A stretch of 64,000 bases of DNA from Chlorobiota bacterium (GTDB taxonomy: Bacteria > Bacteroidota > Ignavibacteria > OLB7), in contig JAQBOZ010000020.1 of the NCBI GenBank assembly GCA_028287785.1, positions 66,738 through 130,737 of the forward strand. Reading direction: 5' to 3'. The notes under the pieces were generated by a model. The model was not told the origin of the DNA and ran no database searches. It was given only the letters and a program-made list of their open reading frames with translations. This document shows, one piece after another, positions 5,296-63,555 of this stretch. The number at the start of each line of letters is the position of its first letter. Position 1 is the first letter of the stretch. A program made the translations under genes and the position numbers.

Positions 5296-7899
5296 CTATT
5301 CCGCTCGCCTCAGCCGGATCACCGGATGCCGCGATGACTCGCCACCGATGCTGATGATCTCCTCCGGCGCAACCCGCGCCAGACGCCGCGAGGCAAGCTG
5401 CGCCCGATCGAACTCCACGCGATATTCCCCCGCCGCCACGCCGGTGATCAGCATCGTCCCGTCGGCGAACACCTCGCCATCGTACAACGCGCTGCCGGAA
5501 ACCGCCGCCAGTTGCACCCGAAGCCCGTTCAGATGCCCCCCCGCGGTTTCCCCCGCGACCGAATCAGCGGCCACGAGACACCGACCGGCAACATCGCCCC
5601 CCTCCACATAGGGCACATCCACCGCCACCGCCGCGCCGGGGGAGGAGAAGACGCCATAGCGGAGATGGCTGGGAAAAAGTCCCTCCGGCGCGTAATCCCA
5701 TCGGTCCACATCCAGCACCCAGACCATGTTCGGCGTCAGCAGAGGGAACTCCCCTTCCTCCGCGGTAAGCTCGGTGTTCCCCTGGCGGAGCCGCGCGTGG
5801 GGCGCCGGCAGATCCTCCTCGCCATCGTCGCGAACGCCGTTGCCGTTCCGATCCCTGAACGCCCGTACAACAACCGCCGAACGCCCCAGCGCATAATCGG
5901 GCGAGAGGAGAACGCCGTTGCCCGTGAAGGCCACGCTCCCCTGGGCGAACATCGTGCTGGTGGTGGCCGCCGTGCCGGCCTGATGATCCGCGAAGGCGAA
6001 TATCCGCGCGGGAGCAAAGTTCAGCTCAAGCTGCGCGGTGATTGCCCCTCGCGACCATTGAAGATTGGGAACGGAATACCCGACGCTGATCCCCATGAAC
6101 CCGGTCAGGCGGAGATATCCCGTCATATCGAGCAGCGGAAGCGACCGGGTGCGATAATCATATGTGCCGCCGATGCTGACCAGCGTCCCCCGCAACGGCG
6201 TCGCAATCAGTCGGAACACGCTCTGAACGCCGCCGCTCCGCCCCGCGCTGTCGATTTCGCCACCGCCGCCGCCGCCAACCGCGCGCGCGAATGTCGTGGA
6301 GAGGAACGCGGTCACCCCCGCCAGATAGCCGGAGATCTGCGGAGTGGCCGTCACGAAATATCCGTTTCCCCGATGCTCCACCCGCCCGGCGCCGCCAATC
6401 GACACCTGCCCAAGCGGAATATTGGCGGAGACCGTGGAGATAAAGGAGCGGTCACGCAGTGAAAGGGAATCGACCGACAGCCGGAACGATCTGTTCCCCG
6501 GCGTCACCGAGGATATCTCGCCGGAAAAGAGGCGGGAAAGAGGCCGGTAGCGCAGCCCCAGCGTGCTCGATTCCCCCATCCATATCGTGGCAAATGTGCT
6601 GGCCGAAACGCTGTCGGCGGTGATGGCGCCATATGCCGAGGGACGCAGCAGGCCGTCCACGCCAACGGTCAGGCGCGACAGCAACCCGAAATCGACGCGC
6701 CCCTCGCCGCCGATCCTCGATCCGGCGGCGAGCCGCTCGCTCCCGCCACGCACGGTATAATCCAGCTCCCCGGAGGGAATGACATGCCCATCAACCTGCA
6801 CCCGTCGCTCCTCCGTGAGGATCTCCCCGTACGGCCCCACAAACCTGAGCAGCCGTTCGATTGTTCCATATCCCACCGGGACCGTGAAAGAATAATATCC
6901 CAGGCTGTCGGCCCTGGTCACATCGGCCAGATGCGTTCCATCGTATAATTCCACAGTCCATCCCGGACGCGTCTGCCCCTGGATTTCATGTTCCATAAAG
7001 CCGCCGCGGGGAATGATCGGGACATTGGAGATCTCGGCGGCATACATCTGCGTCCCCGCCACAGGAATTCTTCCGATCGTGACTTTTCTCAGCGGCGAAT
7101 ATTCCGGCGCGATAAAACGCCATGTCCAGGAATTGAGCGCAACCAGAGGCGTTTGAGCGCCGAACGCCCCGCGACGCATTATCGCCGAGGTATTGATTTC
7201 AGCCTCACCGAACAGCAGTTCGCCGCCAATTCCCACGGAGGCATTGGAGAGATTATTTCTGGAATTCAGATTATTCGATATGGTCCAGTCGATCATCGGC
7301 GCGCCGATCAATGAGCGATTCACGGATATTTCCGGAACCGGATCGCCCGGCGATGTCTTGTCCAGCAGCAGCGATGCGTAACGCTGGTGATTCCGGCTCC
7401 ACTGCACAACCGGCAGCCGTTCATCCTGGGCAATCAGCAGCGTGAGCTTCGATATCCGGAAATTCGCCTGGATTCCGAGAACCCGAAAGAACAGCGACTG
7501 TTCGATATACAACTCGCCGCCAACCAGGCGGATTTGAGCCGCGGGAAACGACACGGTATCCCTTCCACGTGTGGCGGTATTCGAGCGACGCGAAAATTCA
7601 AAATGCTGATCGGACGGGAACGATCCCTCAAGGGTCGAATTATCGGAGGAAATTCCGGCGGGAATGCGGAGAAAATCGCAAAGCGAGAGATAGGGGAGAA
7701 ACAGCGTATCGCCGGAGAACTGAGCAACAAAATCATGACGGGCAATGCCGGCCACCTCGGCCTGCGCCACCCCTTCCTCCAGCGGATCGGGTGGGATGGG
7801 ATCGGCGCCACTGTCAGGGGTTTTTCCCGTTCTGTCGCCGGCCATCGATATATTCGGAACCAGAACCAGCAGGAGCAGAATAAGTGATAGTATGTTCAT
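5296..7899 (-). CDS. Putative fimbrial usher-like outer-membrane protein of the chaperone-usher operon
   Basis: 867 aa with an N-terminal signal peptide (MNILSLILLLLVLVPNISMA). Start ATG overlaps the upstream pilin stop as ATGA, suggesting translational coupling. Size (about 830-880 aa) and position after pilin-chaperone-pilin fit an usher. No usher motif was verified directly. Confidence 0.45.
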   Translation of the reverse strand: MNILSLILLLLVLVPNISMAGDRTGKTPDSGADPIPPDPLEEGVAQAEVAGIARHDFVAQFSGDTLFLPYLSLCDFLRIPAGISSDNSTLEGSFPSDQHFEFSRRSNTATRGRDTVSFPAAQIRLVGGELYIEQSLFFRVLGIQANFRISKLTLLIAQDERLPVVQWSRNHQRYASLLLDKTSPGDPVPEISVNRSLIGAPMIDWTISNNLNSRNNLSNASVGIGGELLFGEAEINTSAIMRRGAFGAQTPLVALNSWTWRFIAPEYSPLRKVTIGRIPVAGTQMYAAEISNVPIIPRGGFMEHEIQGQTRPGWTVELYDGTHLADVTRADSLGYYSFTVPVGYGTIERLLRFVGPYGEILTEERRVQVDGHVIPSGELDYTVRGGSERLAAGSRIGGEGRVDFGLLSRLTVGVDGLLRPSAYGAITADSVSASTFATIWMGESSTLGLRYRPLSRLFSGEISSVTPGNRSFRLSVDSLSLRDRSFISTVSANIPLGQVSIGGAGRVEHRGNGYFVTATPQISGYLAGVTAFLSTTFARAVGGGGGGEIDSAGRSGGVQSVFRLIATPLRGTLVSIGGTYDYRTRSLPLLDMTGYLRLTGFMGISVGYSVPNLQWSRGAITAQLELNFAPARIFAFADHQAGTAATTSTMFAQGSVAFTGNGVLLSPDYALGRSAVVVRAFRDRNGNGVRDDGEEDLPAPHARLRQGNTELTAEEGEFPLLTPNMVWVLDVDRWDYAPEGLFPSHLRYGVFSSPGAAVAVDVPYVEGGDVAGRCLVAADSVAGETAGGHLNGLRVQLAAVSGSALYDGEVFADGTMLITGVAAGEYRVEFDRAQLASRRLARVAPEEIISIGGESSRHPVIRLRRAE

Positions 7900-15257: not shown

Positions 15258-15567
15258 GAGTAGTGACTCAGGTTGGGATACGGCTCATGCTGTTCGGGCT
15301 CATCGAGGGCATTCGGCATCTCTCCTTCCAGCCCCATCGGGGCGTACCGGTTGTAGCGATGCCACGTCTTCGATGATCTGAAGCTCCATCGGTGAGTACC
15401 ATTTGGCAAGGATGCGGGGATGGTACGCTCCGATGGAGCTTGAGCGAAAAGATGGGAGCATCGTTGCTACAACCGGCGCGCTCCTACGGAGCTTGAAGAG
15501 TGAAGGAGGGATCGCCGCCCGATGATTGTTCAGCAGATGGAAGGCCGGATTCAACCTGAGTCACTAC
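15258..15567. repeat. About 310-bp palindromic MITE-like element, copy A, with 18-bp terminal inverted repeats
   Basis: TIRs gagtagtgactcaggttg (15258..15275) and caacctgagtcactactc (15550..15567). Internal nested hairpins: ccggttgtagc...gctacaaccgg outer stem and agctccatcgg...ccgatggagct inner stem. A second copy lies at 28232..28530. Confidence 0.6.
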
Positions 15568-28231: not shown

Positions 28232-28530
28232 AGGTAGTGGCTCAATTTGAATCCAGCCCTCGGGTTGACGGCGCAATGATCCATCGACAATCCTCTGATC
28301 ACTCTTCAAGCTCCGTCAGGAGCGTGCCGGTTGTAGCAACGATATATCCGTTTCACACTCAAGCTCCAGAGGAGCGGACTATTCTGCCGGCATGCAAGGA
28401 TGGTTCGCTCCTCTGGAGCCTGGATTATGGAAGGCGTGGTGATACTACAACCGGCACGCCCCGATGGGGCTGGCAGATGCCGTATATGACTCCGGGCATC
28501 ATCCACAGCATCTCAACCTGAGTCACGACC
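28232..28530. repeat. About 300-bp palindromic MITE-like element, copy B
   Basis: Right TIR caacctgagtcacgaccc (28513..28530) and degenerate left TIR aggtagtggctcaatttg. Same nested-hairpin core as copy A (ccggttgtagc...ctacaaccgg; ctccagaggagcg...cgctcctctggag) with compensatory stem changes. Sits in the 5' region of gene 25885..28104. Confidence 0.55.
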
Positions 28531-38469: not shown

Positions 38470-39309
38470 TCAATGCACCTTGACCTTCACCGGAAGCGAC
38501 TGGAAGGCCACGTAATCGCCGGTGGCCGCCGTGTTCTGCCGTATCTGGAAGACGATGGTCGTGGAATCGACCTTCTTGGGAAGGAGGTTGAAGTTCGAGG
38601 AGATCGATGGATCGGGGACGAAATCGGCAACTGAAGTGTCGGCGAGCTGGCCCACCAGGCTGATCCCGGCCTTGCCGAGCGTATCGAGCTCATTCCCGTT
38701 CGCGTCGAACAACTGGAACCGGAGCGGATGCGTTCCCGAGACGAACGACGGAGAGATCAGCCCGCCGATCACTGTCGAATCGGTCAGCGTCAGCACGCTC
38801 AGATTGAGCCCGGTGCCGCTGGTCAACGTCATCTTCACCACCTCCAGCCCCTCGGTCACAATGTGCGCGTTGATTGGAGCCGTGGTAAAAAGTGGCGCGT
38901 GGTTCCGCAGCAGGACGAACTTCACCGTCGCCTGTCCGGCTCCCTTGCCGAGAAATCTGAACTTGAATCGCTCCCCCGCTATCCTCTGAACTCCCAGGAT
39001 ATTCTGATTGGTGATCACGAAATCGAGGCTGTCATCCGCGTTGATCGTGAAGGCGGAGCCGTCGGTGTTGGTGAAGGTGATAACCATATCGCCGGAGGCG
39101 ACCGGCTGACCGCCGCTGCCGATGGGCCGCTTGATCTCTACGCTGCCGGTTACCGAGCCATTTCCCTGGCTCGCCTTTTCCGTCCCATTCTCCTTCAGGA
39201 CAAAGCCGGCCGGATAGGTGCCGGGGGTTACCGGGGTCTCGGTCTTCGTGCAGCCGGCAAACGCCAGAAGGGATGCGAATGCGACTATGGAGATGATCCG
39301 ATGTGTCAT
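38470..39309 (-). CDS. Lipoprotein of unknown function
   Basis: ATG at 39309 with a lipoprotein signal (MTHRIISIVAFASLLAFAGC). The track ORF extends to 39702 across a repeat element and is not credible there. Confidence 0.6.
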   Translation of the reverse strand: MTHRIISIVAFASLLAFAGCTKTETPVTPGTYPAGFVLKENGTEKASQGNGSVTGSVEIKRPIGSGGQPVASGDMVITFTNTDGSAFTINADDSLDFVITNQNILGVQRIAGERFKFRFLGKGAGQATVKFVLLRNHAPLFTTAPINAHIVTEGLEVVKMTLTSGTGLNLSVLTLTDSTVIGGLISPSFVSGTHPLRFQLFDANGNELDTLGKAGISLVGQLADTSVADFVPDPSISSNFNLLPKKVDSTTIVFQIRQNTAATGDYVAFQSLPVKVKVH

Positions 39310-39439
39310 ACGTGGAAAGAAATCGCTCATGTATTCTACTCCGAGTGGAACTGTTTCGAGGAAGTTAAGAAAGAAGCCGGGAATCGGCAGCCGATATCGC
39401 ACCCCGATAACCGGGGCCGCGGCGGGTTGGTTCCGGGAT

Positions 39440-39709
39440 GCAAGACCATGATGACCCGGCGAGTGTTTCAGACGGCGCGCGGGGCGATGGCCCGCGCACC
39501 AGCTATTGCGCCCCTCCGGGGCTTGGGAGGGAGGACAACGCCGCGGATGATATTCTTCAGCGTAGCTCGATGCCACAGACTGTTCAAGGACGATCTCAAC
39601 TGCAAGGCGGCCAAGCCTGAGCGAACCTGAGCGAATGAGCCGTCCTCCCGGACGCCGCAGTGAGCGACGGTGAAGGCCAACGCAGCAGATGACGTCCTTC
39701 AACAGTCTG
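39440..39709. repeat. Composite intergenic repeat: REP-like hairpin module (39440..39575) plus a 134-bp miniature element with 17-bp TIRs (39576..39709)
   Basis: Module I holds gcgcggggcgatggcccgcgc and gcgcccctccggggc hairpins and recurs near 46803 and 47613. Module II is bounded by cagactgttcaaggacg / cgtccttcaacagtctg and recurs inverted at 63371..63492. It has a 12-bp internal tandem duplication (cctgagcgaa cctgagcgaa). Confidence 0.55.
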
Positions 39710-39715
39710 GTAGGG

Positions 39716-40570
39716 CTACCAAGCCATCACTCCGGGATAATGCCTGCGGCGCAGTTCCTCGATGGTGACCGGATCGGCGCGGAAGGGATTCCCGGGCTCC
39801 CTCGGCGACCGTATCCGGTTGCTGGCGCCGAACGGGGTATCCTCGATCTTCATATTGTACGCCATCACCAGCAGCCGCTCAAGGTTTACGGTATCCTGGA
39901 TGTTGTAGGCCAGGAGCGTCTCCAGCGCCATCGGGTTGGCATTGTTGCGGTATTCATGCCAGAGGAGCACGGCGAAATATCCGTCCACGCCATCCAGCTC
40001 CCCCCTGTCGATTCCAAGCTGACGCTCGCACCCCTTCAGGCCGCCGCCGTAGCCCAGGCTCCGCAGCAGATAACGGAGATCGATATGCGCCTGCGGGAGC
40101 GAGATCATGAAATAACGTTCGATGAACGGAAGATCGAAACACTTGCCGTTGTAGGTGACGAGGAGATCGAACCCGTTGATATCATCCTTGAAATCCCTCA
40201 GGTTCTCCCCGTTGACATAGTGCCTGATCTCCTCGCCGTCATACAGCGCAATCGTCGTGATGGCGGACCCCATGTCGACGCTCAGGCCGGTGGTTTCGAT
40301 ATCGAGGTAGGCCGTGCGACTCCTGAATTCCGGGAACAGCCGCCATTCCTCGCCGCCGGGGATCGATCCGGCGAAAAAGCCGATATCGAAATCCTCCAGC
40401 GCCTGCTGCGACCGATAGAGATGCTCGGTGATCTCCCGCCCTTTTTTTCCGGGGTTCAGGGCATCCCCCATCTCCAGGTAGTCATCCCATGTGCGTATTC
40501 CATCGTCCCAGAGCTTCTGCTCGCTTCTGGCGCCGATGCCGGGTATATGGCAGAACGTATTCGGTATCAT
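39716..40570 (-). CDS. RNase H-like (YprB-family) predicted 3'-5' exonuclease domain protein
   Basis: DEDD-type motif I AYLDIETTGL. Later acidic motifs (FDLLVTYNGKCFDLPF; YNIQDTVNL) in RNase-H-fold order. Confidence 0.55.
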   Translation of the reverse strand: MIPNTFCHIPGIGARSEQKLWDDGIRTWDDYLEMGDALNPGKKGREITEHLYRSQQALEDFDIGFFAGSIPGGEEWRLFPEFRSRTAYLDIETTGLSVDMGSAITTIALYDGEEIRHYVNGENLRDFKDDINGFDLLVTYNGKCFDLPFIERYFMISLPQAHIDLRYLLRSLGYGGGLKGCERQLGIDRGELDGVDGYFAVLLWHEYRNNANPMALETLLAYNIQDTVNLERLLVMAYNMKIEDTPFGASNRIRSPREPGNPFRADPVTIEELRRRHYPGVMAW

Positions 40571-46676: not shown

Positions 46677-46774
46677 GTATGCTCCATCAACGGTTGGAAG
46701 TTTCCCCTCGACGCTGACGAGGCGCGCCGGAGAGAGGATGCCTGGCGAAGCGGCGAACTTAAGAATTACTTCGG

Positions 46775-46915
46775 TGCCGGGGGCGGTGCCCAGGGTACCA
46801 GGGATTGCGCCCCTCCGGGGCCCAATACAGCGAGTTGCTCCACTGGCTACGAGGCATATGAAGGAATATACAGTGACATTCGCGGCGGATATTGTCGCAG
46901 GATATGCCAGGGGCC
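46775..46915. repeat. REP-like intergenic repeat (module I family copy)
   Basis: Contains attgcgcccctccggggc (46803..46820) and gcggcggatattgtcgcaggatatgcc, related to the 39440 and 47585 copies. Confidence 0.4.
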
Positions 46916-46916
46916 G

Positions 46917-47501
46917 TCAATCGTGATCGTGGTCTCTGGCGCGCGCGCGCCATTCCCCCGCCAGCAGCATATACATATCATGCCCCTCCCAGACGCCGTT
47001 GATCTGCACCATCGCCGGTGAATGGCCGATCAGCGTGAACCCGCATTTCTTCAGCACCCGCGCCGATGCCGCGTTGCGCGGCATCACGTTGGCCTCCAGC
47101 CGGTGCAGCCCAAGATCCTCGAACGCATACCGTATCAGCTTCCTAAGCCCGGCCGTCATCAGCCCGCGCCCCATATACTCCGCGTCGATCGAATAGCCGA
47201 ATCGCCCGTTCTGAAACACCCCCCGCTCGATCGACGTGAGCGAGATGGTCCCGATAAGCTCCGCCGCCGATGTGAACATGCCGAAGCGTATCTCCCGCCC
47301 CTCATCCCTCAATATCGCTCCCCGCTCCAGACGCTCCCGCTGAACCTTCGTCGTGAAGAACTCGGCGGGGGCAAGCGGCGACCACTCGCGGTGCGCCTCC
47401 CGGTTCCGCCGGTAGTACGAGGCAAGCAATGGGGCATCCTCCTGCTCCAGCGGACGGATGAAATACGAAAGCGGAGGCTGAACCGATGGGCTCTTCTTCA
47501 T
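46917..47501 (-). CDS. GNAT-family N-acetyltransferase (RimJ/RimL-like)
   Basis: ATG at 47501 (MKKSPSVQPP...); the track ORF begins upstream at 47609. GNAT motifs (GTISLTSIE...GYSIDAEYMGRGLMTAGLRKLIRYAFEDLGLHRLEANVMPRNAASARVLKKCGF). Confidence 0.8.
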   Translation of the reverse strand: MKKSPSVQPPLSYFIRPLEQEDAPLLASYYRRNREAHREWSPLAPAEFFTTKVQRERLERGAILRDEGREIRFGMFTSAAELIGTISLTSIERGVFQNGRFGYSIDAEYMGRGLMTAGLRKLIRYAFEDLGLHRLEANVMPRNAASARVLKKCGFTLIGHSPAMVQINGVWEGHDMYMLLAGEWRARARDHDHD

Positions 47502-47584
47502 GGGATCGTTTATGATACGATAACGGCGCGGGGGAATCCATTGAGCCGAAGTATACTGAACATGCGGCTGACACGGAACATCGG

Positions 47585-47700
47585 TGACGCGGGGCATCGC
47601 CCCGCGCACCGGGGATTGCGCCCCTCCGGGGCTTGAGAAGGCGGGCGGGCGTGGCGGATGAGATCCTTCAAGAGTCGGTTAGCACGAAGTTTGATGCGTG
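47585..47700. repeat. REP-like intergenic repeat (module I family copy)
   Basis: gacgcggggcatcgccccgcgcacc ggggattgcgcccctccggggcttgag..., two stem-loops. Closest to the 39440 copy. Confidence 0.4.
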
Positions 47701-47845
47701 AGATGGCTTCCCCCCCGGGTGGCACCGATGATGGTGAACCGGACCGATCGGCTAACTTGAGCCGACAGCCTAATCGTGCCCCCGTCTCGTATATGGTCAA
47801 TGGTGCGGATGGAGTCTCCGCGCCGCTACATTTATCAGCGATCCG

Positions 47846-48940
47846 ATGCCAAACATTCTCGCGGTCGGCACCGTCTTGCCGGACAATATTCTCACGCAAC
47901 GGGAGGTGCAGCAGTTCGCGCACAATATCTACGGCGAGGCATTTCACGATATCGACAGGCTGGTTTCGGTGTTCGACAACGCGGAGATCGAGCAGCGGCA
48001 TTTCTGCGTTCCGCTGGACTGGTTCGGCAGCTCGAAAACGTTCGAGGAGAAGAACGATCTCTACATCAGCAACGCCATCTCCCTGTCGAGCGCGGCCATC
48101 GAGCTGGCGCTGACGAACGCGGGGCTGGCTCACGCCGATATCGACTACCTTATCTTCGTCTCCACAACCGGCATCTCCACGCCGAGCATCGACGCGCAAC
48201 TGATCCAGCGGCTGCCGTTCCGCCGCAACATCAAGCGGCTGCCGATCTGGGGGCTTGGCTGCGCCGGCGGTGCCGCATCGCTCTCCCGCGCCATGGATAT
48301 CGCCAGGGCAAACCGATCGGCGCGGGTCCTTGTGGTGATCACCGAGCTGTGCGGGCTTACCTTCCTCCGCAACGACCTCTCGAAGTCAGCATTGATCGCC
48401 ACCTCCCTCTTCGCCGACGGATCGGCGGCGGTGGTGGTCGGCGGCGATGACGTGCCGGCCGGCCCGCGCGCGGCGGCGCTGATCTCATCGCGCACAACCA
48501 CGATGGATGACTCGCTGGACGTGATGGGATGGGATATCGGCAACGATGGGTTCAAGGTGATGATCTCCCGCGATATCCCGGCGATCGTCAGGACCTTCAT
48601 GCGCGATTCGATCGAGGCGTTTCTGGAGGAGGAGGGCCTCGCAATCGGCGATATCGATCATTTCATCGCCCATCCCGGCGGGGCCAAGGTGCTCCAGGCG
48701 TACATCGATTCGCTCGATCTGCCGCCGGAGAAGCTGGATCATACGCGGTCGGTCCTCCGCACATGCGGGAACATGTCGGCATGCTCGGTGATCTTCGTGC
48801 TCGAGAAGTTTCTGGAGGAGATCGCCTCACGCCGGGACCCCCAACCGGATACGGAGTACGGCCTGCTGGGGGCGCTCGGCCCCGGCTTCGCCTCCGAGCT
48901 GGTGCTCCTCCGCTGGCAATCACCGGCCGAATCAACCTGA
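47846..48940 (+). CDS. Type III polyketide synthase (chalcone/stilbene synthase family)
   Basis: Active-site Cys in LGCAGGAASL. FIAHPGGAKVL (His) and GNMSACSV (Asn) complete the Cys-His-Asn triad. About 364 aa. Confidence 0.85.
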   Translation: MPNILAVGTVLPDNILTQREVQQFAHNIYGEAFHDIDRLVSVFDNAEIEQRHFCVPLDWFGSSKTFEEKNDLYISNAISLSSAAIELALTNAGLAHADIDYLIFVSTTGISTPSIDAQLIQRLPFRRNIKRLPIWGLGCAGGAASLSRAMDIARANRSARVLVVITELCGLTFLRNDLSKSALIATSLFADGSAAVVVGGDDVPAGPRAAALISSRTTTMDDSLDVMGWDIGNDGFKVMISRDIPAIVRTFMRDSIEAFLEEEGLAIGDIDHFIAHPGGAKVLQAYIDSLDLPPEKLDHTRSVLRTCGNMSACSVIFVLEKFLEEIASRRDPQPDTEYGLLGALGPGFASELVLLRWQSPAEST

Positions 48941-49870: not shown

Positions 49871-50665
49871 GTGGAACTACTCGACGCAATCCGCAACAGA
49901 CGGACAACCAACTCGCGATTTCTCGAAAAGCCTCTCTCCGACGACCATATACGGACCATCATCGAGGCGGCGAGCTATGCCCCCAGCCACTTCAACTCGC
50001 AGCCCTGGCGGTTTGTGCTGATACGGAGCCGTGAGGGGCGCGACAGGCTGGGGAAGATCGCCGGGCGATCGATGCGGGCAGTGATGGAGAAAGGGGAGTT
50101 CTGGAAGCGCTATCTGAAGTATTTCCGATTCAGCAGAGAGGAGATCGACAAGAGCGGCGATGGGATTTATATCGATAACATGCCGGCGCCGCTGCGGCCG
50201 TTTATCCGCTATATCTTCTCGGAGAAGGGGGCCGAGGTGATGAACAAGCTCCGCGTCCCCTACATCCTGGCGATTGATTCCAAGCGGCTGATCACCACAT
50301 CGCCATTGATCCTGGCCGTGCTGCTGACGAAGGAGGAGTACAGGAAGGGGGAGCTTTCCGGGATGTATTCCATGCTGGCGCTCGGCATGGCGATCGAGAA
50401 CATCTGGCTGACCGCCAACTCCCTCGGCGTCGGCGTGCAGTTCATCTCCCTCCCGATGGAGGCCGGCGGCGAGCACTGGGCGGAATGCGTGGCGATGATC
50501 GATCCGCCGGAGAACTACGAGGTGATAGCCCTCTTCCGCCTTGGCTACGTGGACCCCGATGCCAAACGTCCGACGATCGACTGGTCCAGCAAGCAGCGGA
50601 AGGATATCTCGCAATTCTGTTTTGATGAGACATTCGGCAACGGATGGCGGTCGGGGCGGGTTTGA
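49871..50665 (+). CDS. Nitroreductase-family protein
   Basis: SHFNSQPWRFVLI motif. The track start (TTG at 49805) overlaps the NUDIX gene. An in-frame GTG at 49871 gives the typical nitroreductase N-terminus (M)ELLDAIRNRRTTNSRF, so the start was placed there by inference. Confidence 0.7.
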   Translation: MELLDAIRNRRTTNSRFLEKPLSDDHIRTIIEAASYAPSHFNSQPWRFVLIRSREGRDRLGKIAGRSMRAVMEKGEFWKRYLKYFRFSREEIDKSGDGIYIDNMPAPLRPFIRYIFSEKGAEVMNKLRVPYILAIDSKRLITTSPLILAVLLTKEEYRKGELSGMYSMLALGMAIENIWLTANSLGVGVQFISLPMEAGGEHWAECVAMIDPPENYEVIALFRLGYVDPDAKRPTIDWSSKQRKDISQFCFDETFGNGWRSGRV

Positions 50666-50678
50666 AACCCGCCCCGAC
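50650..50678. repeat. 29-nt GC-rich hairpin, copy 1 (gtcggggcgggtttgaaacccgccccgac); probable bidirectional terminator or REP
   Basis: 11-bp perfect stem. Overlaps the nitroreductase stop codon. Near-identical copy at 51236..51264. Confidence 0.5.
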
Positions 50679-50694
50679 GGCGCTTCGCTCCATA

Positions 50695-51198
50695 TCATCC
50701 GCCATACGTAAACAGATTCTCCGGATGCTCCTCCACCCGGCCGGTGCTGATGATATGCCGCACCGTCACGCCGCGAGCCGCCAGCGCGTCGGCAACCCAG
50801 AAGCGATGGCAGTGGCTGGGGTCGGACTCCGCGCACATCAGCGCCACGCGCCGCTCCGATGCCAGACGAAGCGCCCGCTCCATCCCCCGCTTGAACGGCT
50901 CGGTCCCCATGTAGCCCGCAAACCCGCGCGAACGCTCGCTGCACGACTTCGCGCGGTCGATCACCGCCTGCGGTGGCTTCACCCCGCCCAGTTCCGTGCA
51001 ATGCTCGTAGATAAGCCCATGACCGGGGATCATCGCCTCCATCTCCTCCCTGTTGAACTGCGGGTTGTACCGTGAGTATGGTATCCTCCTGATATCGAGC
51101 AGCAGCTCGATCCCGTTCTCCTTCAGCAGCTCCACCAGCTCATCCCGTGTCCGCGTTGAATGGCCTATCGTGAATATCTCAAGTTCCTGCCGGCTCAT
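50695..51198 (-). CDS. DUF488-family protein
   Basis: ATG at 51198; the track ORF begins upstream at 51270. MSRQELEIFTIGHSTRTRDELVELLKENGIELLLDIRRIPYS matches the DUF488 N-terminal pattern (IYTIGHS...LVDVR..P.S). Confidence 0.7.
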   Translation of the reverse strand: MSRQELEIFTIGHSTRTRDELVELLKENGIELLLDIRRIPYSRYNPQFNREEMEAMIPGHGLIYEHCTELGGVKPPQAVIDRAKSCSERSRGFAGYMGTEPFKRGMERALRLASERRVALMCAESDPSHCHRFWVADALAARGVTVRHIISTGRVEEHPENLFTYGG

Positions 51199-51235
51199 GC
51201 GCTTTGTATTGATTGAATTGATCGTTAGCGTCGGC

Positions 51236-51264
51236 GTCGGGGCGGGTTTAAAACCCGCCCCGAC
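51236..51264. repeat. 29-nt GC-rich hairpin, copy 2 (gtcggggcgggtttaaaacccgccccgac)
   Basis: Perfect palindrome. Lies upstream of the DUF488 start, between it and valS. Confidence 0.5.
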
Positions 51265-51426
51265 GTACACGACATCGACGTGCTGCTACTGACTCCACTA
51301 TAACGAATGAAACGCCCGCAACGTCTGAAAAACGTTCCGGACGGATGAAAAATCGCGCTGGTTTCAACCTGTGCGGCGCTACCTTCCGTACAGGCTTCCG
51401 CCGTATATTCTTCGCCATAATAATTC

Positions 51427-60773: not shown

Positions 60774-61349
60774 ATGAGGATCGAGCATGTCTTCGGCGAT
60801 CTCCCCCCCATCCCCACCGAACGCCTTCTCCTCAGGAAGCTCAGGCTGGAGGATGCCGCCGACGTTTTCGATTACGCGAGCGACCCTGAGGTCTCCCGGT
60901 ATGTTGTGTGGGATACGCACAATTCCATCGAGGACTCGCGCGGTTTTCTGGCGGCGACGATCGAACAGTACCGGAACGGCCACGTTTCGAGCTGGGGAAT
61001 CGAGCTGCGATCGACCGGGCGCGTGATCGGGACGATCGGCTTCGTCTACTGGAATATCGACCATGCGCGCACGGAGATCGGCTATGCGATGCACCGGCGG
61101 GACTGGGGAAAGGGGCTGATGACCGAGGCGGTCCGCGGGGTCATCGATTTCGGGTTCGCGACGATGGAGCTGAACCGGATCGAGGCGCGCTGCGAGGCCG
61201 TCAACACCGGCTCCTGGCGCGTGATGGAAAAGGCGGGGATGACATTCGAAGGCATCCTCCGCCAGCAGATGTACGTCAAGGGATCGTACCGCGATCTGAA
61301 AATGTACGCGATCCTCCGGCGGGACTGGCCGGAGGCCCGGCGCGATTGA
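60774..61349 (+). CDS. GNAT-family N-acetyltransferase (RimJ/RimL-like)
   Basis: TERLLLRKLRLEDAADVFDYASDPEVSRYV...; acetyl-CoA motif RRDWGKGLMTEAVRGVIDFGF...NRIEARCEAVNTGSWRVMEKAGMTFEGILRQ. Confidence 0.8.
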   Translation: MRIEHVFGDLPPIPTERLLLRKLRLEDAADVFDYASDPEVSRYVVWDTHNSIEDSRGFLAATIEQYRNGHVSSWGIELRSTGRVIGTIGFVYWNIDHARTEIGYAMHRRDWGKGLMTEAVRGVIDFGFATMELNRIEARCEAVNTGSWRVMEKAGMTFEGILRQQMYVKGSYRDLKMYAILRRDWPEARRD

Positions 61350-61384
61350 ACGCACGGCAGATGTTAACGCACGGATACCCGACC

Positions 61385-63370
61385 ATGAATGCTCGTCATA
61401 TACTGATCCTGGGGCTTCTCGCGATCTCCGTTTCGATCGCCAGAGCGCAGTTGCCTCACCCGGCCCTCTCCACGCCGATCTCCGGCCCGCTCGACTACAC
61501 GCCGCAGGCGTTCGACGTGATCCATTACGACGCGCGGCTCGATCTGACGGCGGCGCCGCAGAAGACCATGAGCGGCGCATGCACCATCACGATCGTCTGG
61601 GTGAAGGACCCATCGTCCGGCCCGTTCTATTTCCATCTCCGCGATCTCCAGATCACCGCCGCCTATTACAACGCGGCGATGGCGACGCCGGTGGTGGAGG
61701 GGACGCCGGAATCGGCCACGTACCACTACAGAATCGATCCGCCGCCAACGGCAAGGGCCGGCGATACGGCCAGGATCACGATCGAGTACAACGGCACCAT
61801 GACCGATGAACTCGGCGACGGCTACTGGGGTGGCGTCAGCTCATCGGACAGCGCGGTCTTCGCGATGGGCGTCGGCTTCTACAACAACTACGTCTCCTCC
61901 ACGGAGCACTGGCTCCCCTGCTACGACCATCCCTCCGACAAGGCGACCTTCCGGGGCCGGTTCCGCGTGCGGAAGGGGTTTGCCGTGGCGTCGAACGGGC
62001 TGGTGACGGTTACGCCGGAGAGCGACAGCACGACCGTCTACGACTGGCGCACCGATATCCCGTGCGCCACCTATCTCCTCACCTTCGCCGCCGGCAGGTA
62101 CGTGCCGCTGGATATCGCGGGGGCGCCGGTGCCGATGGTGGTCTACTCCCGCACCCGCGATACCGCCGCCACGCGCAAATCCTTCAGGCTCCTTCCAAGG
62201 ATGGTGGATGCGTTCGCGCGCCGGTTCGGGCCGTATCCGTTCGAGAAGGTCGGCTATGTCAACACGACGCTCGGGGCGATGGAACATCAGACAATGGTCT
62301 CCTTCAACACCAGCCTCTCGCAGTCCGGCGATACCGTCAACTCCACCGGCGCGCACGAGCTTTCCCACCAGTGGTTCGGCGATCTGGTCTCCCCGCGCGA
62401 TTTCCGGAACGCATGGCTGAACGAGAGCTTCGCGGTCTTCTGCGAAACGATCTGGGCGGAGGAGCTGAAGGGACACGCCGGCTATCTGGACGCGCAGGAG
62501 AAGGCGCGGAACCGCTATATCAGGACCGTCGCGAAGAGCGAGGGGATCATGCCGCTCTACGATTTCCCCCGCGCGAAGCCCTCCTCCAACTACCCCGAGA
62601 CCATCTATCAGAAAGGGGGAGTTGTCGTCGGCATGCTCCGGTATGAGCTGGGGGATTCACTCTTCTTCGCCTCCATGCGGGACTACCTGCACCGCTTCAG
62701 CTACGGCGTCTCCACCACCGATTCTCTTCGGGCGGTGCTGGAGCAGGACGCCGGACGCTCGCTCGGATGGTTCTTCGATCAATGGGTCTATCAGAAGGGC
62801 TGGCCGGTCCTCAACCTGACATCGCGGTCGGGGCCGTCGGCAGGAGGGCTGAATCGCGTGAGCGTAAAACTACAGCAGGTGCAGACGGTCGGGCCGGCGG
62901 TATTTACGCGGCTTCCGGTGGAGCTTGGCTTTGTCGGCGCCGGAGGCGTCACCACCTACAGAATGGTCACGATGATGAACGGCGTGGAGGAGGCCACGTT
63001 CGATTCCATTCCCCCCTTCACCAGCATCACCGTCAACAAGGGGCCGTCCGTCAGGGCGCTGCTCGAGGCGGGAGCGGTGGCGGGAGTGGAGAGCGGTGCC
63101 CTGCATCCCGATTCGGCGGCGGTGGAGTTTATCGTGCGACCGAACCCGGTCAGGCGTGAAAACGCCCTCTCGGTGGAGGCGCATGGCGCGTCCGACTGCA
63201 CCGGAATCGACTACGCGGTCTACGATTCCTCCGGCCGGAAGCTGGCGGTGGGCCACAGCGAAACCTGCCTCTTCACCATCCCGGTCGCGGGGCTGGCATC
63301 GGGGGCGCATGTGATCAGATTCACATTGAAGGGGCTATCCTACGATGTCCCGGCAATCATCACGCGATAA
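61385..63370 (+). CDS. M1-family zinc aminopeptidase with T9SS C-terminal sorting domain
   Basis: ATG at 61385 with signal peptide; the track ORF begins upstream at 60908. GAMEH exopeptidase motif. HELSHQWFGDLVS...WLNESFA (HEXXH-X18-E). C-terminal Por tail (VRPNPVRRENALSVEA...GLASGAHVIRFTLKG). Confidence 0.85.
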   Translation: MNARHILILGLLAISVSIARAQLPHPALSTPISGPLDYTPQAFDVIHYDARLDLTAAPQKTMSGACTITIVWVKDPSSGPFYFHLRDLQITAAYYNAAMATPVVEGTPESATYHYRIDPPPTARAGDTARITIEYNGTMTDELGDGYWGGVSSSDSAVFAMGVGFYNNYVSSTEHWLPCYDHPSDKATFRGRFRVRKGFAVASNGLVTVTPESDSTTVYDWRTDIPCATYLLTFAAGRYVPLDIAGAPVPMVVYSRTRDTAATRKSFRLLPRMVDAFARRFGPYPFEKVGYVNTTLGAMEHQTMVSFNTSLSQSGDTVNSTGAHELSHQWFGDLVSPRDFRNAWLNESFAVFCETIWAEELKGHAGYLDAQEKARNRYIRTVAKSEGIMPLYDFPRAKPSSNYPETIYQKGGVVVGMLRYELGDSLFFASMRDYLHRFSYGVSTTDSLRAVLEQDAGRSLGWFFDQWVYQKGWPVLNLTSRSGPSAGGLNRVSVKLQQVQTVGPAVFTRLPVELGFVGAGGVTTYRMVTMMNGVEEATFDSIPPFTSITVNKGPSVRALLEAGAVAGVESGALHPDSAAVEFIVRPNPVRRENALSVEAHGASDCTGIDYAVYDSSGRKLAVGHSETCLFTIPVAGLASGAHVIRFTLKGLSYDVPAIITR

Positions 63371-63492
63371 CAGACTGTTGAAGGACGTCATCTGCTGCGT
63401 TGGCCTTCACCGTCGCTCATTGCGGCGTCCGGGAGGACGCCTCATTCGCTCAGGTTCGGCCGCCTTGCAGCTGATCGTCCTTGAACAGTCTG
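63371..63492. repeat. 122-bp miniature inverted-repeat element (17-bp TIRs), inverted copy of 39576..39709
   Basis: cagactgttgaaggacg ... cgtccttgaacagtctg. Its reverse complement is more than 90% identical to the 39576..39709 element and lacks that copy's 12-bp internal duplication. Begins 1 bp after the aminopeptidase stop. Confidence 0.55.
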
Positions 63493-63555
63493 CGGCATCG
63501 AAAGTAGTTCAACAGCCTGATAAGACGGCCGCAGAATCTTAAACGGAATGATCCG

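What the first reader, a model, noticed from the sequence alone, without database searches (positions are those of the whole stretch)
39440..39709. Composite intergenic repeat made of a REP-like double-hairpin module joined to a 134-bp element bounded by 17-bp TIRs
Seen in sequence: module I (39440..39575) carries two GC hairpins (gcgcggggcgatggcccgcgc; gcgcccctccggggc). Related copies are at 46775..46915 and 47585..47700, all intergenic. Module II (39576..39709) is bounded by cagactgttcaaggacg and cgtccttcaacagtctg, contains an internal hairpin (gccgtcctcccggacgccgc) and a 12-bp tandem duplication, and recurs inverted at 63371..63492. The supplied ORFs spanning these repeats (38470..39702 N-terminal extension, 63345..63542, 46759..46953, 47510..48199) share peptide strings such as KDVICCVGLHRRSLRRPGGRLIRSGS only because they read through the repeat. 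They are not genes.
Basis: seen in the sequence. Interest (0 to 1): 0.5.

Follow-up and report, generated by a model that had tools for sequence, protein, structure and literature searches.

The report
Small mobile DNA repeat (MITE) family
The repeat is a family of short, non-coding "jumping" DNA elements (MITEs) that has recently spread through the genomes of a group of uncultured Kapabacteria, often landing exactly on gene stop codons. It is a new example of a well-known kind of element.

Summary

**Module II** is a MITE. It is about 123 nt, or about 149 nt with a second left-end repeat (L1). It has ends CAGACTGTTGAA…TTCAACAGTCTG and a 4-bp target-site duplication HTAN.
- Copy B (63371-63519) is flanked by ATAA/ATAA. 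Two related genomes (87-91% nt identity) carry a single ATAA there, which is the M1-peptidase stop codon.
- Copy A (39566-39709) is flanked by GTAG/GTAG.

**Module I** is not an independent REP. It is a damaged sub-family with the same end sequences and a GC-hairpin interior. Copy A of module II inserted into its right end. The whole 233-nt block (39483-39715) is missing at the orthologous site of two relatives.

**Copy number and turnover.** At least 65 copies lie in 291 kb of the related MAG GCA_039917235.1. None of seven insertions compared is shared with the window.

**Other features.**
- 8 of 17 perfect-duplication copies sit on a TAA/TAG stop codon.
- The element folds into a long hairpin, with compensatory changes on both arms.
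- It is non-coding.
- The transposase that moves it was not found.

Verdict: new member of a known kind, modest interest.

The parts
39566..39709 (+). Module II copy A. MITE of 144 nt: a 10-nt remnant of outer repeat L1 (39566-39575), left repeat L2 (39576-39592), a palindromic interior with a central hairpin, and right repeat R (39693-39709).
   Evidence: absent from the orthologous site in L125/L126
39562..39565 (.). Left copy of the 4-bp target-site duplication GTAG of copy A. It lies inside the decayed right end of the module-I element.
   Evidence: read; removing copy A plus one GTAG restores TTCAGCGTAGGG, which is the same length as the family end TTCAACAGTCTG (inference)
39710..39713 (.). 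Right copy of the 4-bp target-site duplication GTAG of copy A.
39616..39635 (+). 10-bp tandem duplication (CCTGAGCGAA x2) private to copy A. It breaks the symmetry of the hairpin.
39483..39565 (+). Module-I-type element, left-truncated. It holds GC hairpin 1 (completed by ancestral GCGCGG), GC hairpin 2 (GCCCCTCCGGGGC), and a right arm AGGACAACGCCGCGGATGATATTCTTCA (24/28 to the family consensus). Its last 6 nt (GTAGGG) now lie at 39710-39715, beyond the nested copy A.
39716..39719 (.). CTAC, the ancestral HTAN target next to the module-I right end. 39716-39718 is the TAG stop codon (minus strand) of the RNase H-like gene 39716..40570.
63371..63519 (-). Module II copy B, a complete 149-nt MITE. 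On the minus strand it reads L1 (63519-63494), L2 (63492-63476), interior, R (63387-63371).
   Evidence: precise empty site in L127/L128
63367..63370 (.). Target-site duplication ATAA, left copy. It contains the TAA stop codon (63368-63370) of the M1 aminopeptidase gene.
63520..63523 (.). Target-site duplication ATAA, right copy.
46763..46821 (+). Module-I-type copy. It has an L1 remnant GAATTACTTCGGTGCC (15/17 to consensus) abutting TTAA (46759-46762), then two GC hairpins. The right part has decayed or been interrupted. It is absent from relatives L129/L130.
47583..47678 (+). Module-I-type copy. It has two GC hairpins and a right arm GCGGATGAGATCCTTCAAGAGTC (20/23) ending at TTAG (47679-47682). 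It replaces 24 nt that are present in relatives L129/L130.
47765..47768 (.). Empty site in the window (ACAG). Relatives L129/L130 carry TTAT|123-nt MITE|ACAT (in their orientation) exactly here.

Best explanation
The finding is a family of miniature inverted-repeat transposable elements (MITEs), that is, non-autonomous DNA transposons.

**Structure.** A unit has terminal inverted repeats CAGACTGTTGAA…TTCAACAGTCTG. Its left end holds two tandem ~26-nt repeats (L1, L2), and its right end (R) matches them in inverted orientation. The interior is almost perfectly palindromic.

**Mechanism (inferred).** A DDE-type transposase supplied in trans is inferred to bind these repeats. It would integrate the element at HTAN sites through 4-nt staggered cuts, which gives a 4-bp duplication.

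**Stop codons.** TAA/TAG stop codons are HTAN sites, and the duplication regenerates the stop. Many copies therefore sit exactly at gene ends, where they are tolerated.

**The 39440-39709 region.** This is a nested pair. A sub-family copy ('module I': the same ends, with two GC hairpins as interior) first landed on the stop codon of the RNase H-like gene. A module II copy then inserted into its right end, and the module-I left end was lost.

**Shown:** inverted ends, exact 4-bp duplications, copy number, empty orthologous sites, lack of coding signal, hairpin potential.

**Inferred:** the transposase (not found), the order of events at copy A, and any effect on the transcripts.
For: **Ends and copy number**
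- The inverted ends occur far above chance.
- nhmmer finds 73 hits, about 65 of them solid, in 291 kb of MAG GCA_039917235.1. Size classes are about 91, 115, 124 and 147 nt.

**Target-site duplication**
- 17 copies have a perfect 4-bp direct duplication at the outer ends. The duplicated sequences are TTAT, TTAG, TTAA, CTAT, CTAC, CTAA, ATAA and ATAG. No duplication extends to 5 bp or more.

**Empty orthologous sites.** Relatives are 87-91% identical to the window over flanking genes.
- Copy B: relatives have a single ATAA; the window has ATAA|149 nt|ATAA.
- The 39483-39715 block is absent from L125 and L126.
- Module-I copies at 46763 and 47583 are absent from L129/L130.
- In the reverse direction, copies present in L129/L130 and in L127 are absent from the window.

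**Assembly behaviour**
- An independent assembly of the window's organism breaks 36 nt past the RNase H-like gene, inside the repeat.

**Not coding**
- Length classes differ by non-multiples of 3, and there is no 3-nt periodicity in variability.
- The read-through ORF has no homologue among 5.8 billion proteins.

**Module I**
- Module I copies share L1 or right-arm sequence with the family.

**Stop codons**
- 8 of 17 perfect-duplication copies have the stop codon inside the duplication, against a 5.4% background (p about 1e-6).
Against: - No autonomous element or transposase with matching ends was found in the window, in about 350 kb of related loci, or through the one metagenome scan.
- All three module-I copies are damaged at one end, so their mobility is inferred from shared ends and absence in relatives, not from intact duplications.
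- One related copy (L127 2551-2665) is flanked by a 9-bp duplication plus 12 extra nt rather than HTAN.
- Covariation deep inside the hairpin is not needed for a purely protein-recognised transposon and hints at an extra constraint.
- The gene calls used for the context statistics are crude.
Confidence: 0.9

Rival explanations
1. The family is primarily a structured RNA element, such as a 3'-UTR stabiliser, an RNase III site or an sRNA. On this view the hairpin is under selection, and transposition is only how the element spread, or it has been exapted.
For: - Copy B folds into one continuous hairpin of -71 to -73 kcal/mol, z about -5.8, on either strand.
- 9 of 35 pairs show changes on both sides, including interior pairs 27-137 (CG 22 / UA 12) and 52-97 (UA 24 / CG 10). 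No shuffle out of 500 reached the observed values, and slid controls collapse.
- Many copies lie directly after stop codons, so they would be co-transcribed.
Against: - There is no orientation bias towards the adjacent gene: 4 R ends and 4 L ends next to stop codons, and 20 versus 10 in co-directional contexts.
- No Rfam match and no terminator or promoter consensus.
- Copies are not conserved at orthologous sites between 88-90% identical genomes. That fits neutral or selfish turnover.
- Arm-to-arm covariation can also arise from sub-family history or intra-palindrome repair.
Confidence: 0.15
2. Module I is an independent REP/REPIN-type element mobilised by a RAYT (Y1 transposase). It would be unrelated to module II, which merely inserted next to it.
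For: - It has short GC-rich hairpins, is intergenic, and occurs 3 times in 64 kb.
- The hairpin-side ends of two copies lack an inverted repeat and a duplication.
Against: - Each copy carries family-specific end sequence: the 3' half of L1 (15/17) or the right arm (24/28, 20/23).
- The two intact ends seen (the L1 remnant at 46763 and the right arm ending at 47678) abut TTAA and TTAG sites that pre-exist in relatives.
- The copies are not arranged as inverted REP pairs, and all three are on one strand.
- No RAYT gene was seen, but none was searched for systematically.
Confidence: 0.06
3. The repeats are coding: a conserved peptide module read in the long ORFs such as 38470..39702 and 63345..63542.
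For: Long ORFs run through the copies. One frame is open in 28 of 38 aligned copies.
Against: - No protein in 5.8 billion shares even three 5-residue words with the 65-aa ORF.
- Size variants differ by 23, 33 or 10 nt, and there is no codon periodicity.
- Copies occur in both orientations between genes.
- Orthologous genes in relatives lack the extension.
Confidence: 0.01

Closest known systems
Bacterial MITEs in general (e.g. Correia/NEMIS elements of Neisseria, RUP of Streptococcus pneumoniae, Nezha of cyanobacteria). Comparison from my own knowledge of these families.
   Same: - 100-170 nt, terminal inverted repeats, no ORF.
- Dozens to hundreds of intergenic copies, with insertion-site polymorphism between close relatives.
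- TA-centred targets.
- Often co-transcribed with neighbouring genes.
   Different: - Those families are linked to IS630/Tc1-mariner-type transposases and duplicate only TA. Here the duplication is 4 bp (HTAN), and both outer bases match between the two flanks.
- The end sequence CAGACTGTTGAA gave no relevant hit in the full-text search.
- The left end carries two tandem 26-nt repeats.
ERIC/IRU elements of enterobacteria (about 127-nt imperfect palindromes). Comparison from my own knowledge.
   Same: - The whole element is a long imperfect palindrome predicted to form one hairpin.
- Size variants arise from internal insertions and deletions.
- Compensatory changes occur on both arms, and the location is intergenic and transcribed.
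   Different: - There is no sequence similarity.
- The present family has clear 4-bp duplications and very recent turnover.
- Its hosts are uncultured Kapabacteria, in the Chlorobi/Ignavibacteria/Bacteroidota group.
IS5 (IS5 family) and IS701 family insertion sequences, as candidate sources of the transposase
   Same: - IS5 makes a 4-bp duplication with motif YTAR (PMC10359306).
- IS701 members make duplications of exactly 4 bp (PMC2266710).
- Here the duplication is exactly 4 bp with a TA core.
   Different: - Observed targets include non-YTAR sites (ATAA, ATAG, TTAT, CTAT, CTAC, GTAG).
- The ends do not obviously fit the IS701 consensus ---YACT-Y--YR (PMC2266710).
- No transposase gene was recovered, so the link is untested.
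REP/REPIN elements mobilised by RAYTs
   Same: Short GC-rich hairpins in intergenic DNA, in multiple copies.
   Different: Module I carries the MITE family's L1 or right arm, and the two intact ends seen abut HTAN sites. It has no inverted-pair organisation.

Membership tests
MITE (non-autonomous DNA transposon) | Small (under about 300 bp) and without coding capacity | tested here: met
   Size is about 91-172 nt. There is no codon periodicity, indels are not multiples of 3, and there is no protein homologue.
MITE (non-autonomous DNA transposon) | Terminal inverted repeats | tested here: met
   The outer 12 nt are CAGACTGTTGAA / TTCAACAGTCTG. L2 and R match at 16 of 17 nt.
MITE (non-autonomous DNA transposon) | Target-site duplication of fixed length | tested here: met
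   17 copies have a perfect 4-bp duplication and none extends to 5 bp or more. Copy B has ATAA/ATAA where relatives have a single ATAA.
MITE (non-autonomous DNA transposon) | Multi-copy, with presence/absence polymorphism at orthologous sites | tested here: met
   There are at least 65 copies in 291 kb of GCA_039917235.1. None of 7 insertions is shared between the window and that MAG at 87-91% nt identity.
MITE (non-autonomous DNA transposon) | A cognate autonomous element with the same ends that encodes the transposase | tested here: inconclusive
   None was found in the window or in the fetched loci. A suspected IS end turned out to be a gene 3' end beside a solo L1. The collection scans were exhausted.
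IS630/Tc1-mariner-derived MITEs (Correia, RUP, Nezha) | Duplication of the TA dinucleotide only | tested here: not met
   The bases on both sides of TA are also duplicated, for example TTAG/TTAG, CTAC/CTAC and ATAA/ATAA.
IS5-derived MITE | 4-bp duplication at YTAR | tested here: inconclusive
   The length fits. Among the 17 perfect duplications, 5 are YTAR (2 TTAG, 2 CTAA, 1 TTAA) and 12 are not (4 TTAT, 3 ATAA, 3 ATAG, 1 CTAT, 1 CTAC). Copy A's GTAG duplication is also not YTAR. The YTAR motif is taken from PMC10359306.
IS5-derived MITE | Ends matching those of an IS5-family element in the same genomes | not testable with these tools
   Complete assemblies of these MAGs could not be searched, and there is no ISfinder access.
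REP/REPIN (RAYT-mobilised) | Short palindromes in inverted pairs, no target duplication, associated RAYT gene | tested here: not met
   The three module-I copies all lie on the + strand and are unpaired. They carry MITE end sequences. RAYT genes were not searched for systematically.
Known structured RNA family (Rfam 15) | Match at the family gathering score | tested here: not met
   There are no matches in the 64-kb window. Only chance-level hits appear at E 0.7-7.5.

The most novel reading that the evidence does not exclude
The family may be more than a passive parasite in two ways. First, it may preferentially integrate at TAA/TAG stop codons and regenerate the stop through its 4-bp duplication. 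Second, its whole-length hairpin may be kept by selection, as the compensatory changes deep in the interior suggest. Each insertion would then add a stable 3'-UTR stem-loop to a gene. That would make it a mobile, stop-codon-targeted module for modulating transcript ends in Kapabacteria.
Probability: 0.15. Interest if true: 0.55.

Novelty: new member of a known kind. Interest (0 to 1): 0.3.

Why it matters
- **Annotation.** It explains spurious ORFs and N-terminal extensions, for example 38470..39702 and 63345..63542.
- **Assembly.** It explains why short-read assemblies of these organisms fragment: contigs end inside the repeat.
- **Strain typing.** None of seven insertions is shared between genomes about 88-90% identical, so the element is a sensitive marker for strain or species typing in an uncultured lineage.
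- **Biology.** The frequent landing on stop codons and the conserved hairpin give a concrete, testable case of how MITEs reshape 3' UTRs. This would still be an elaboration of known MITE biology, not a new principle.

Tried and rejected
1. **Known RNA family.** Rfam at gathering and E-value thresholds gave nothing. There are no tRNA or tmRNA genes.
2. **Suspected end of an autonomous IS.** Contigs L003 and L028 end in the same 127 nt, starting CAGCCTGTTGAATTAGTCC.
   - Pfam and NCBIfam gave nothing on the encoded peptides.
   - The single metagenome scan hit only the C-terminus of an unrelated MutS2/Smr gene (…VVKMD*).
   - The 127 nt is therefore most likely a gene 3' end beside a solo L1, not a transposase.
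3. **ORFs next to solo or partial ends.** No transposase-like neighbour was found. The 'solo' ends are short internal-deletion variants.
4. **Self-BLAST of all loci for longer repeats.** This found only MITE copies. The Ktedonobacteria hits are a chance 17-mer inside a conserved TetR gene beside an unrelated IS.
5. **Viral-contig scan.** It returned five single chance hits.
6. **Literature searches.** Searches for the end sequences and for Kapabacteria MITEs found nothing relevant.
7. **Orientation bias relative to genes.** It is not significant.
8. **TA-only duplication (IS630 type).** This was rejected by the matching outer bases.

Full report
**1. What is in the sequence**

The region lies between two minus-strand genes. 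One is an RNase H-like gene (39716..40570, PF13482). The other is a lipoprotein gene whose real start is near 39310; ORF 38470..39702 is that gene with a spurious N-terminal extension.

- The 17-nt repeat CAGACTGTT[C/G]AAGGACG occurs four times in the window, as two inverted pairs, against 0.17 expected.
- The 39567-39712 segment recurs inverted at 63368-63501 with 97% identity over the shared arms.
- Copy A carries a private 10-bp tandem duplication, CCTGAGCGAA x2 at 39616-39635, not the 12 bp reported.
- The module-I core ATTGCGCCCCTCCGGGGC occurs three times, all on the + strand and all intergenic.
- Rfam finds nothing, and there are no tRNA genes.

**2. The family elsewhere and its true limits**

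It returned dozens of stretches from one MAG, Candidatus Kapaibacterium sp. cluster1_bin.331 (JBDSJW01, GCA_039917235.1). Every other genome gave single chance hits.

- A profile search of the fetched loci found 73 hits, about 65 of them solid, in 291 kb. Some are in tandem.
- Length classes are about 91, 115, 124 and 147 nt between L2 and R.
- Window copy B has L1 and therefore spans 63371-63519. Copy A keeps only the last 10 nt of L1 (39566-39575).

**3. Target-site duplication**

Seventeen copies have a perfect 4-bp direct repeat at the outer ends, and none extends to 5 bp or more. Many further copies match at 3 of 4 positions.

- The duplicated sequences are TTAT, TTAG, TTAA, CTAT, CTAC, CTAA, ATAA and ATAG. 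This gives an HTAN target.
- Both the 149/172-nt (L1-L2-R) and the 123-nt (L2-R) forms carry duplications.
- The bases flanking TA match between the two sides. This is therefore a true 4-bp duplication, not the TA-only duplication of IS630/mariner-type MITEs.
- Copy B is flanked by ATAA (63367-63370 and 63520-63523).
- Copy A is flanked by GTAG (39562-39565 and 39710-39713).

**4. Empty sites in close relatives**

The window comes from an NCBI MAG labelled Chlorobi/Chlorobiota bacterium (protein MDB5034769.1, contig 173 kb). Cluster look-ups led to orthologous contigs of three sources: GCA_039917235.1 (L125, L127, L129), GCA_040007115.1 (L128, L130) and a JGI metagenome (L126). These are 85-91% identical to the window over flanking genes.

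1. At the copy B locus, relatives read …GCGCGATAACCCGCG…, with a 36-nt spacer between the M1 aminopeptidase and deoC. The window reads ATAA|149-nt element|ATAA. The duplicated ATAA contains the peptidase stop codon.
2. At the copy A locus, relatives read …GACGGCGCGCGG|CTACCAGG…. The window has 233 extra nt (39483-39715) exactly there. It follows that 39440-39482 is ancestral unique DNA, not repeat.
3. The module-I copies at 47583-47678 and at 46763 onward are absent from L129/L130. The right end of the first abuts TTAG and the L1 remnant of the second abuts TTAA. Both sites exist in the relatives.
4. In the reverse direction, L129/L130 carry TTAT|123-nt copy|ACAT where the window has just 4 nt (ACAG, 47765-47768).
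5. L127 has a copy after the valS stop codon that the window lacks.

None of the seven insertions compared is shared between the window and the JBDSJW MAG. A more distant relative (72% protein identity) has a 134-nt spacer without any element at the copy A locus. An independent Logan assembly of the window's organism ends 36 nt after the RNase H-like gene, inside the repeat.

**5. What module I is**

Each module-I copy contains family-specific terminal sequence:
- 39531-39558 matches the consensus right arm at 24 of 28 positions.
- 47653-47675 matches the right arm at 20 of 23.
- 46763-46778 matches the 3' half of L1 at 15 of 17.
- A similar module-I/module-II junction exists in the MAG (L064, about 6880-6930).

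Module I is therefore a sub-family with the same ends and a different interior of two GC hairpins. All three window copies are damaged at one end.

The most economical history for 39483-39719 is as follows.
- A module-I-type element landed on CTAC, which is the TAG stop of the RNase H-like gene read on the other strand.
- Its right end decayed to GATGATATTCTTCAGCGTAGGG.
- Module II copy A then integrated at the GTAG inside that end and duplicated it.
- The module-I left end was lost, with the junction falling in a CGCGG microhomology.

This order of events is inference.

**6. Not coding**

- Length variants differ by 10, 23 or 33 nt.
- Column variability shows no 3-nt periodicity.
- Copies lie in every orientation relative to neighbouring genes.
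- The 65-aa read-through ORF 63345..63542 has no relative among 5.8 billion predicted proteins.

**7. Structure and context**

- Copy B folds on either strand into one continuous hairpin of -71 to -73 kcal/mol, z about -5.8. Copy A folds less well because of its 10-bp duplication. Module I alone is not exceptional, at z about -0.9.
- Across 38 copies, 97.4% of cells in 35 predicted pairs are paired, and 9 pairs change on both sides.
- Two interior pairs covary in combinations that do not follow one another: CG/UA at columns 27-137 and UA/CG at columns 52-97.
- No shuffle out of 500 reached the observed values, and slid controls fall to 24-52% paired.
- This could reflect selection on an RNA or single-stranded DNA hairpin, repair within the palindrome, or sub-family history. 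It does not by itself show a function.
- There is no terminator or sigma-70 promoter consensus in the elements.
- Eight of 17 perfect-duplication copies have the TAA/TAG stop of an ORF of at least 80 codons exactly inside the duplication. Only 5.4% of non-coding TA sites are of this kind (binomial p about 1e-6, with crude gene calls).
- The end facing the gene is R in four cases and L in four.
- In co-directional contexts the orientations split 20 to 10. Placement is biased, but orientation is not.

**8. Mechanism and what is missing**

The anatomy fits a non-autonomous DDE transposon mobilised in trans. It has three repeat units that look like transposase-binding sites, and it integrates with 4-nt staggered cuts at HTAN.

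- Families known to make 4-bp duplications include IS5 (motif YTAR, PMC10359306) and IS701 (exactly 4 bp, PMC2266710).
- The targets seen here are broader than YTAR, and the ends do not clearly fit the IS701 consensus. Assignment to a family therefore remains open.
- No transposase was found. A candidate IS end proved to be a gene 3' end beside a solo L1. Neighbours of partial copies are ordinary genes.

**9. Comparison and verdict**

In size, ends, duplication, copy number and turnover this is a typical bacterial MITE family. Its long-hairpin architecture resembles ERIC, and its TA-centred targeting resembles Correia and RUP, but with a 4-bp duplication.

No description of it turned up in the searched literature. 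I rate it a new member of a known kind, of modest interest.

Noticed in passing
window 15260-15530 and 28270-28530: A second, unrelated repeat of about 290 nt is present as an inverted pair 13 kb apart (81% identity). It is itself internally palindromic (15325-15357 against 15466-15498) and may be another MITE-like family.
   Followed up: partly
window 50650-50682 and 51232-51264: The same GC-rich hairpin, GTCGGGGCGGGTTT[G/A]AAACCCGCCCCGAC, sits on both sides of ORF 50695..51270. It looks like a terminator or a REP (I5).
   Followed up: no
L127 2551-2665 (JBDSJW010000270.1), orthologous to window ~54181: A MITE copy right after the valS stop codon is absent from the window. It is flanked by a 9-bp direct repeat (GATCCCCGG) plus 12 extra nt instead of a 4-bp HTAN duplication. 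This non-canonical insertion is unexplained.
   Followed up: partly
L032 7488-7632 and L042 ~318-480: A third repeat family (…GTCATCCTGACGCGAAGCGGAAG…GAGATTCTTCGCGTTGCTCAGAATGAC…) is inserted inside a MITE copy in L032. It also occurs free-standing in L042.
   Followed up: no
L003 4146-4272 and L028 2216-2342: Two contigs end in the same 127 nt, which begins with a solo L1-like 15-mer overlapping the stop codon of an ORF ending …ISVVKMD*. The upstream flanks differ, so this is an assembly-graph branch, possibly strain heterogeneity at a MITE site.
   Followed up: partly
L036 5004, L040 5286, L064 3231-3288: Solo L1 repeats and a 58-nt mini-element (two ends only) occur. They suggest frequent internal deletion or abortive excision.
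   Followed up: no
L066, L037, L092, L003, L060, L032, L031, L045, L103, L029, L028, L055, L089 (147-nt class): One sub-family carries an extra 23-nt hairpin, GTCGGGGGACGTTTCAAACGTCCCCGGAC, in the right arm. This is the same region where module I carries its GC hairpins.
   Followed up: no
L104 52-298, L088 661-871, L087 4-218: Tandem MITE arrays occur in which the first unit's right end is truncated and joined to L2 of the next. This is the same arrangement as module I plus module II in the window.
   Followed up: partly
window 60908..63370 and 38470..39702: The longest-ORF coordinates overstate both genes. The M1 aminopeptidase as deposited starts at 61385 (661 aa, MDB5034789.1). The lipoprotein starts near 39310.
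   Followed up: yes
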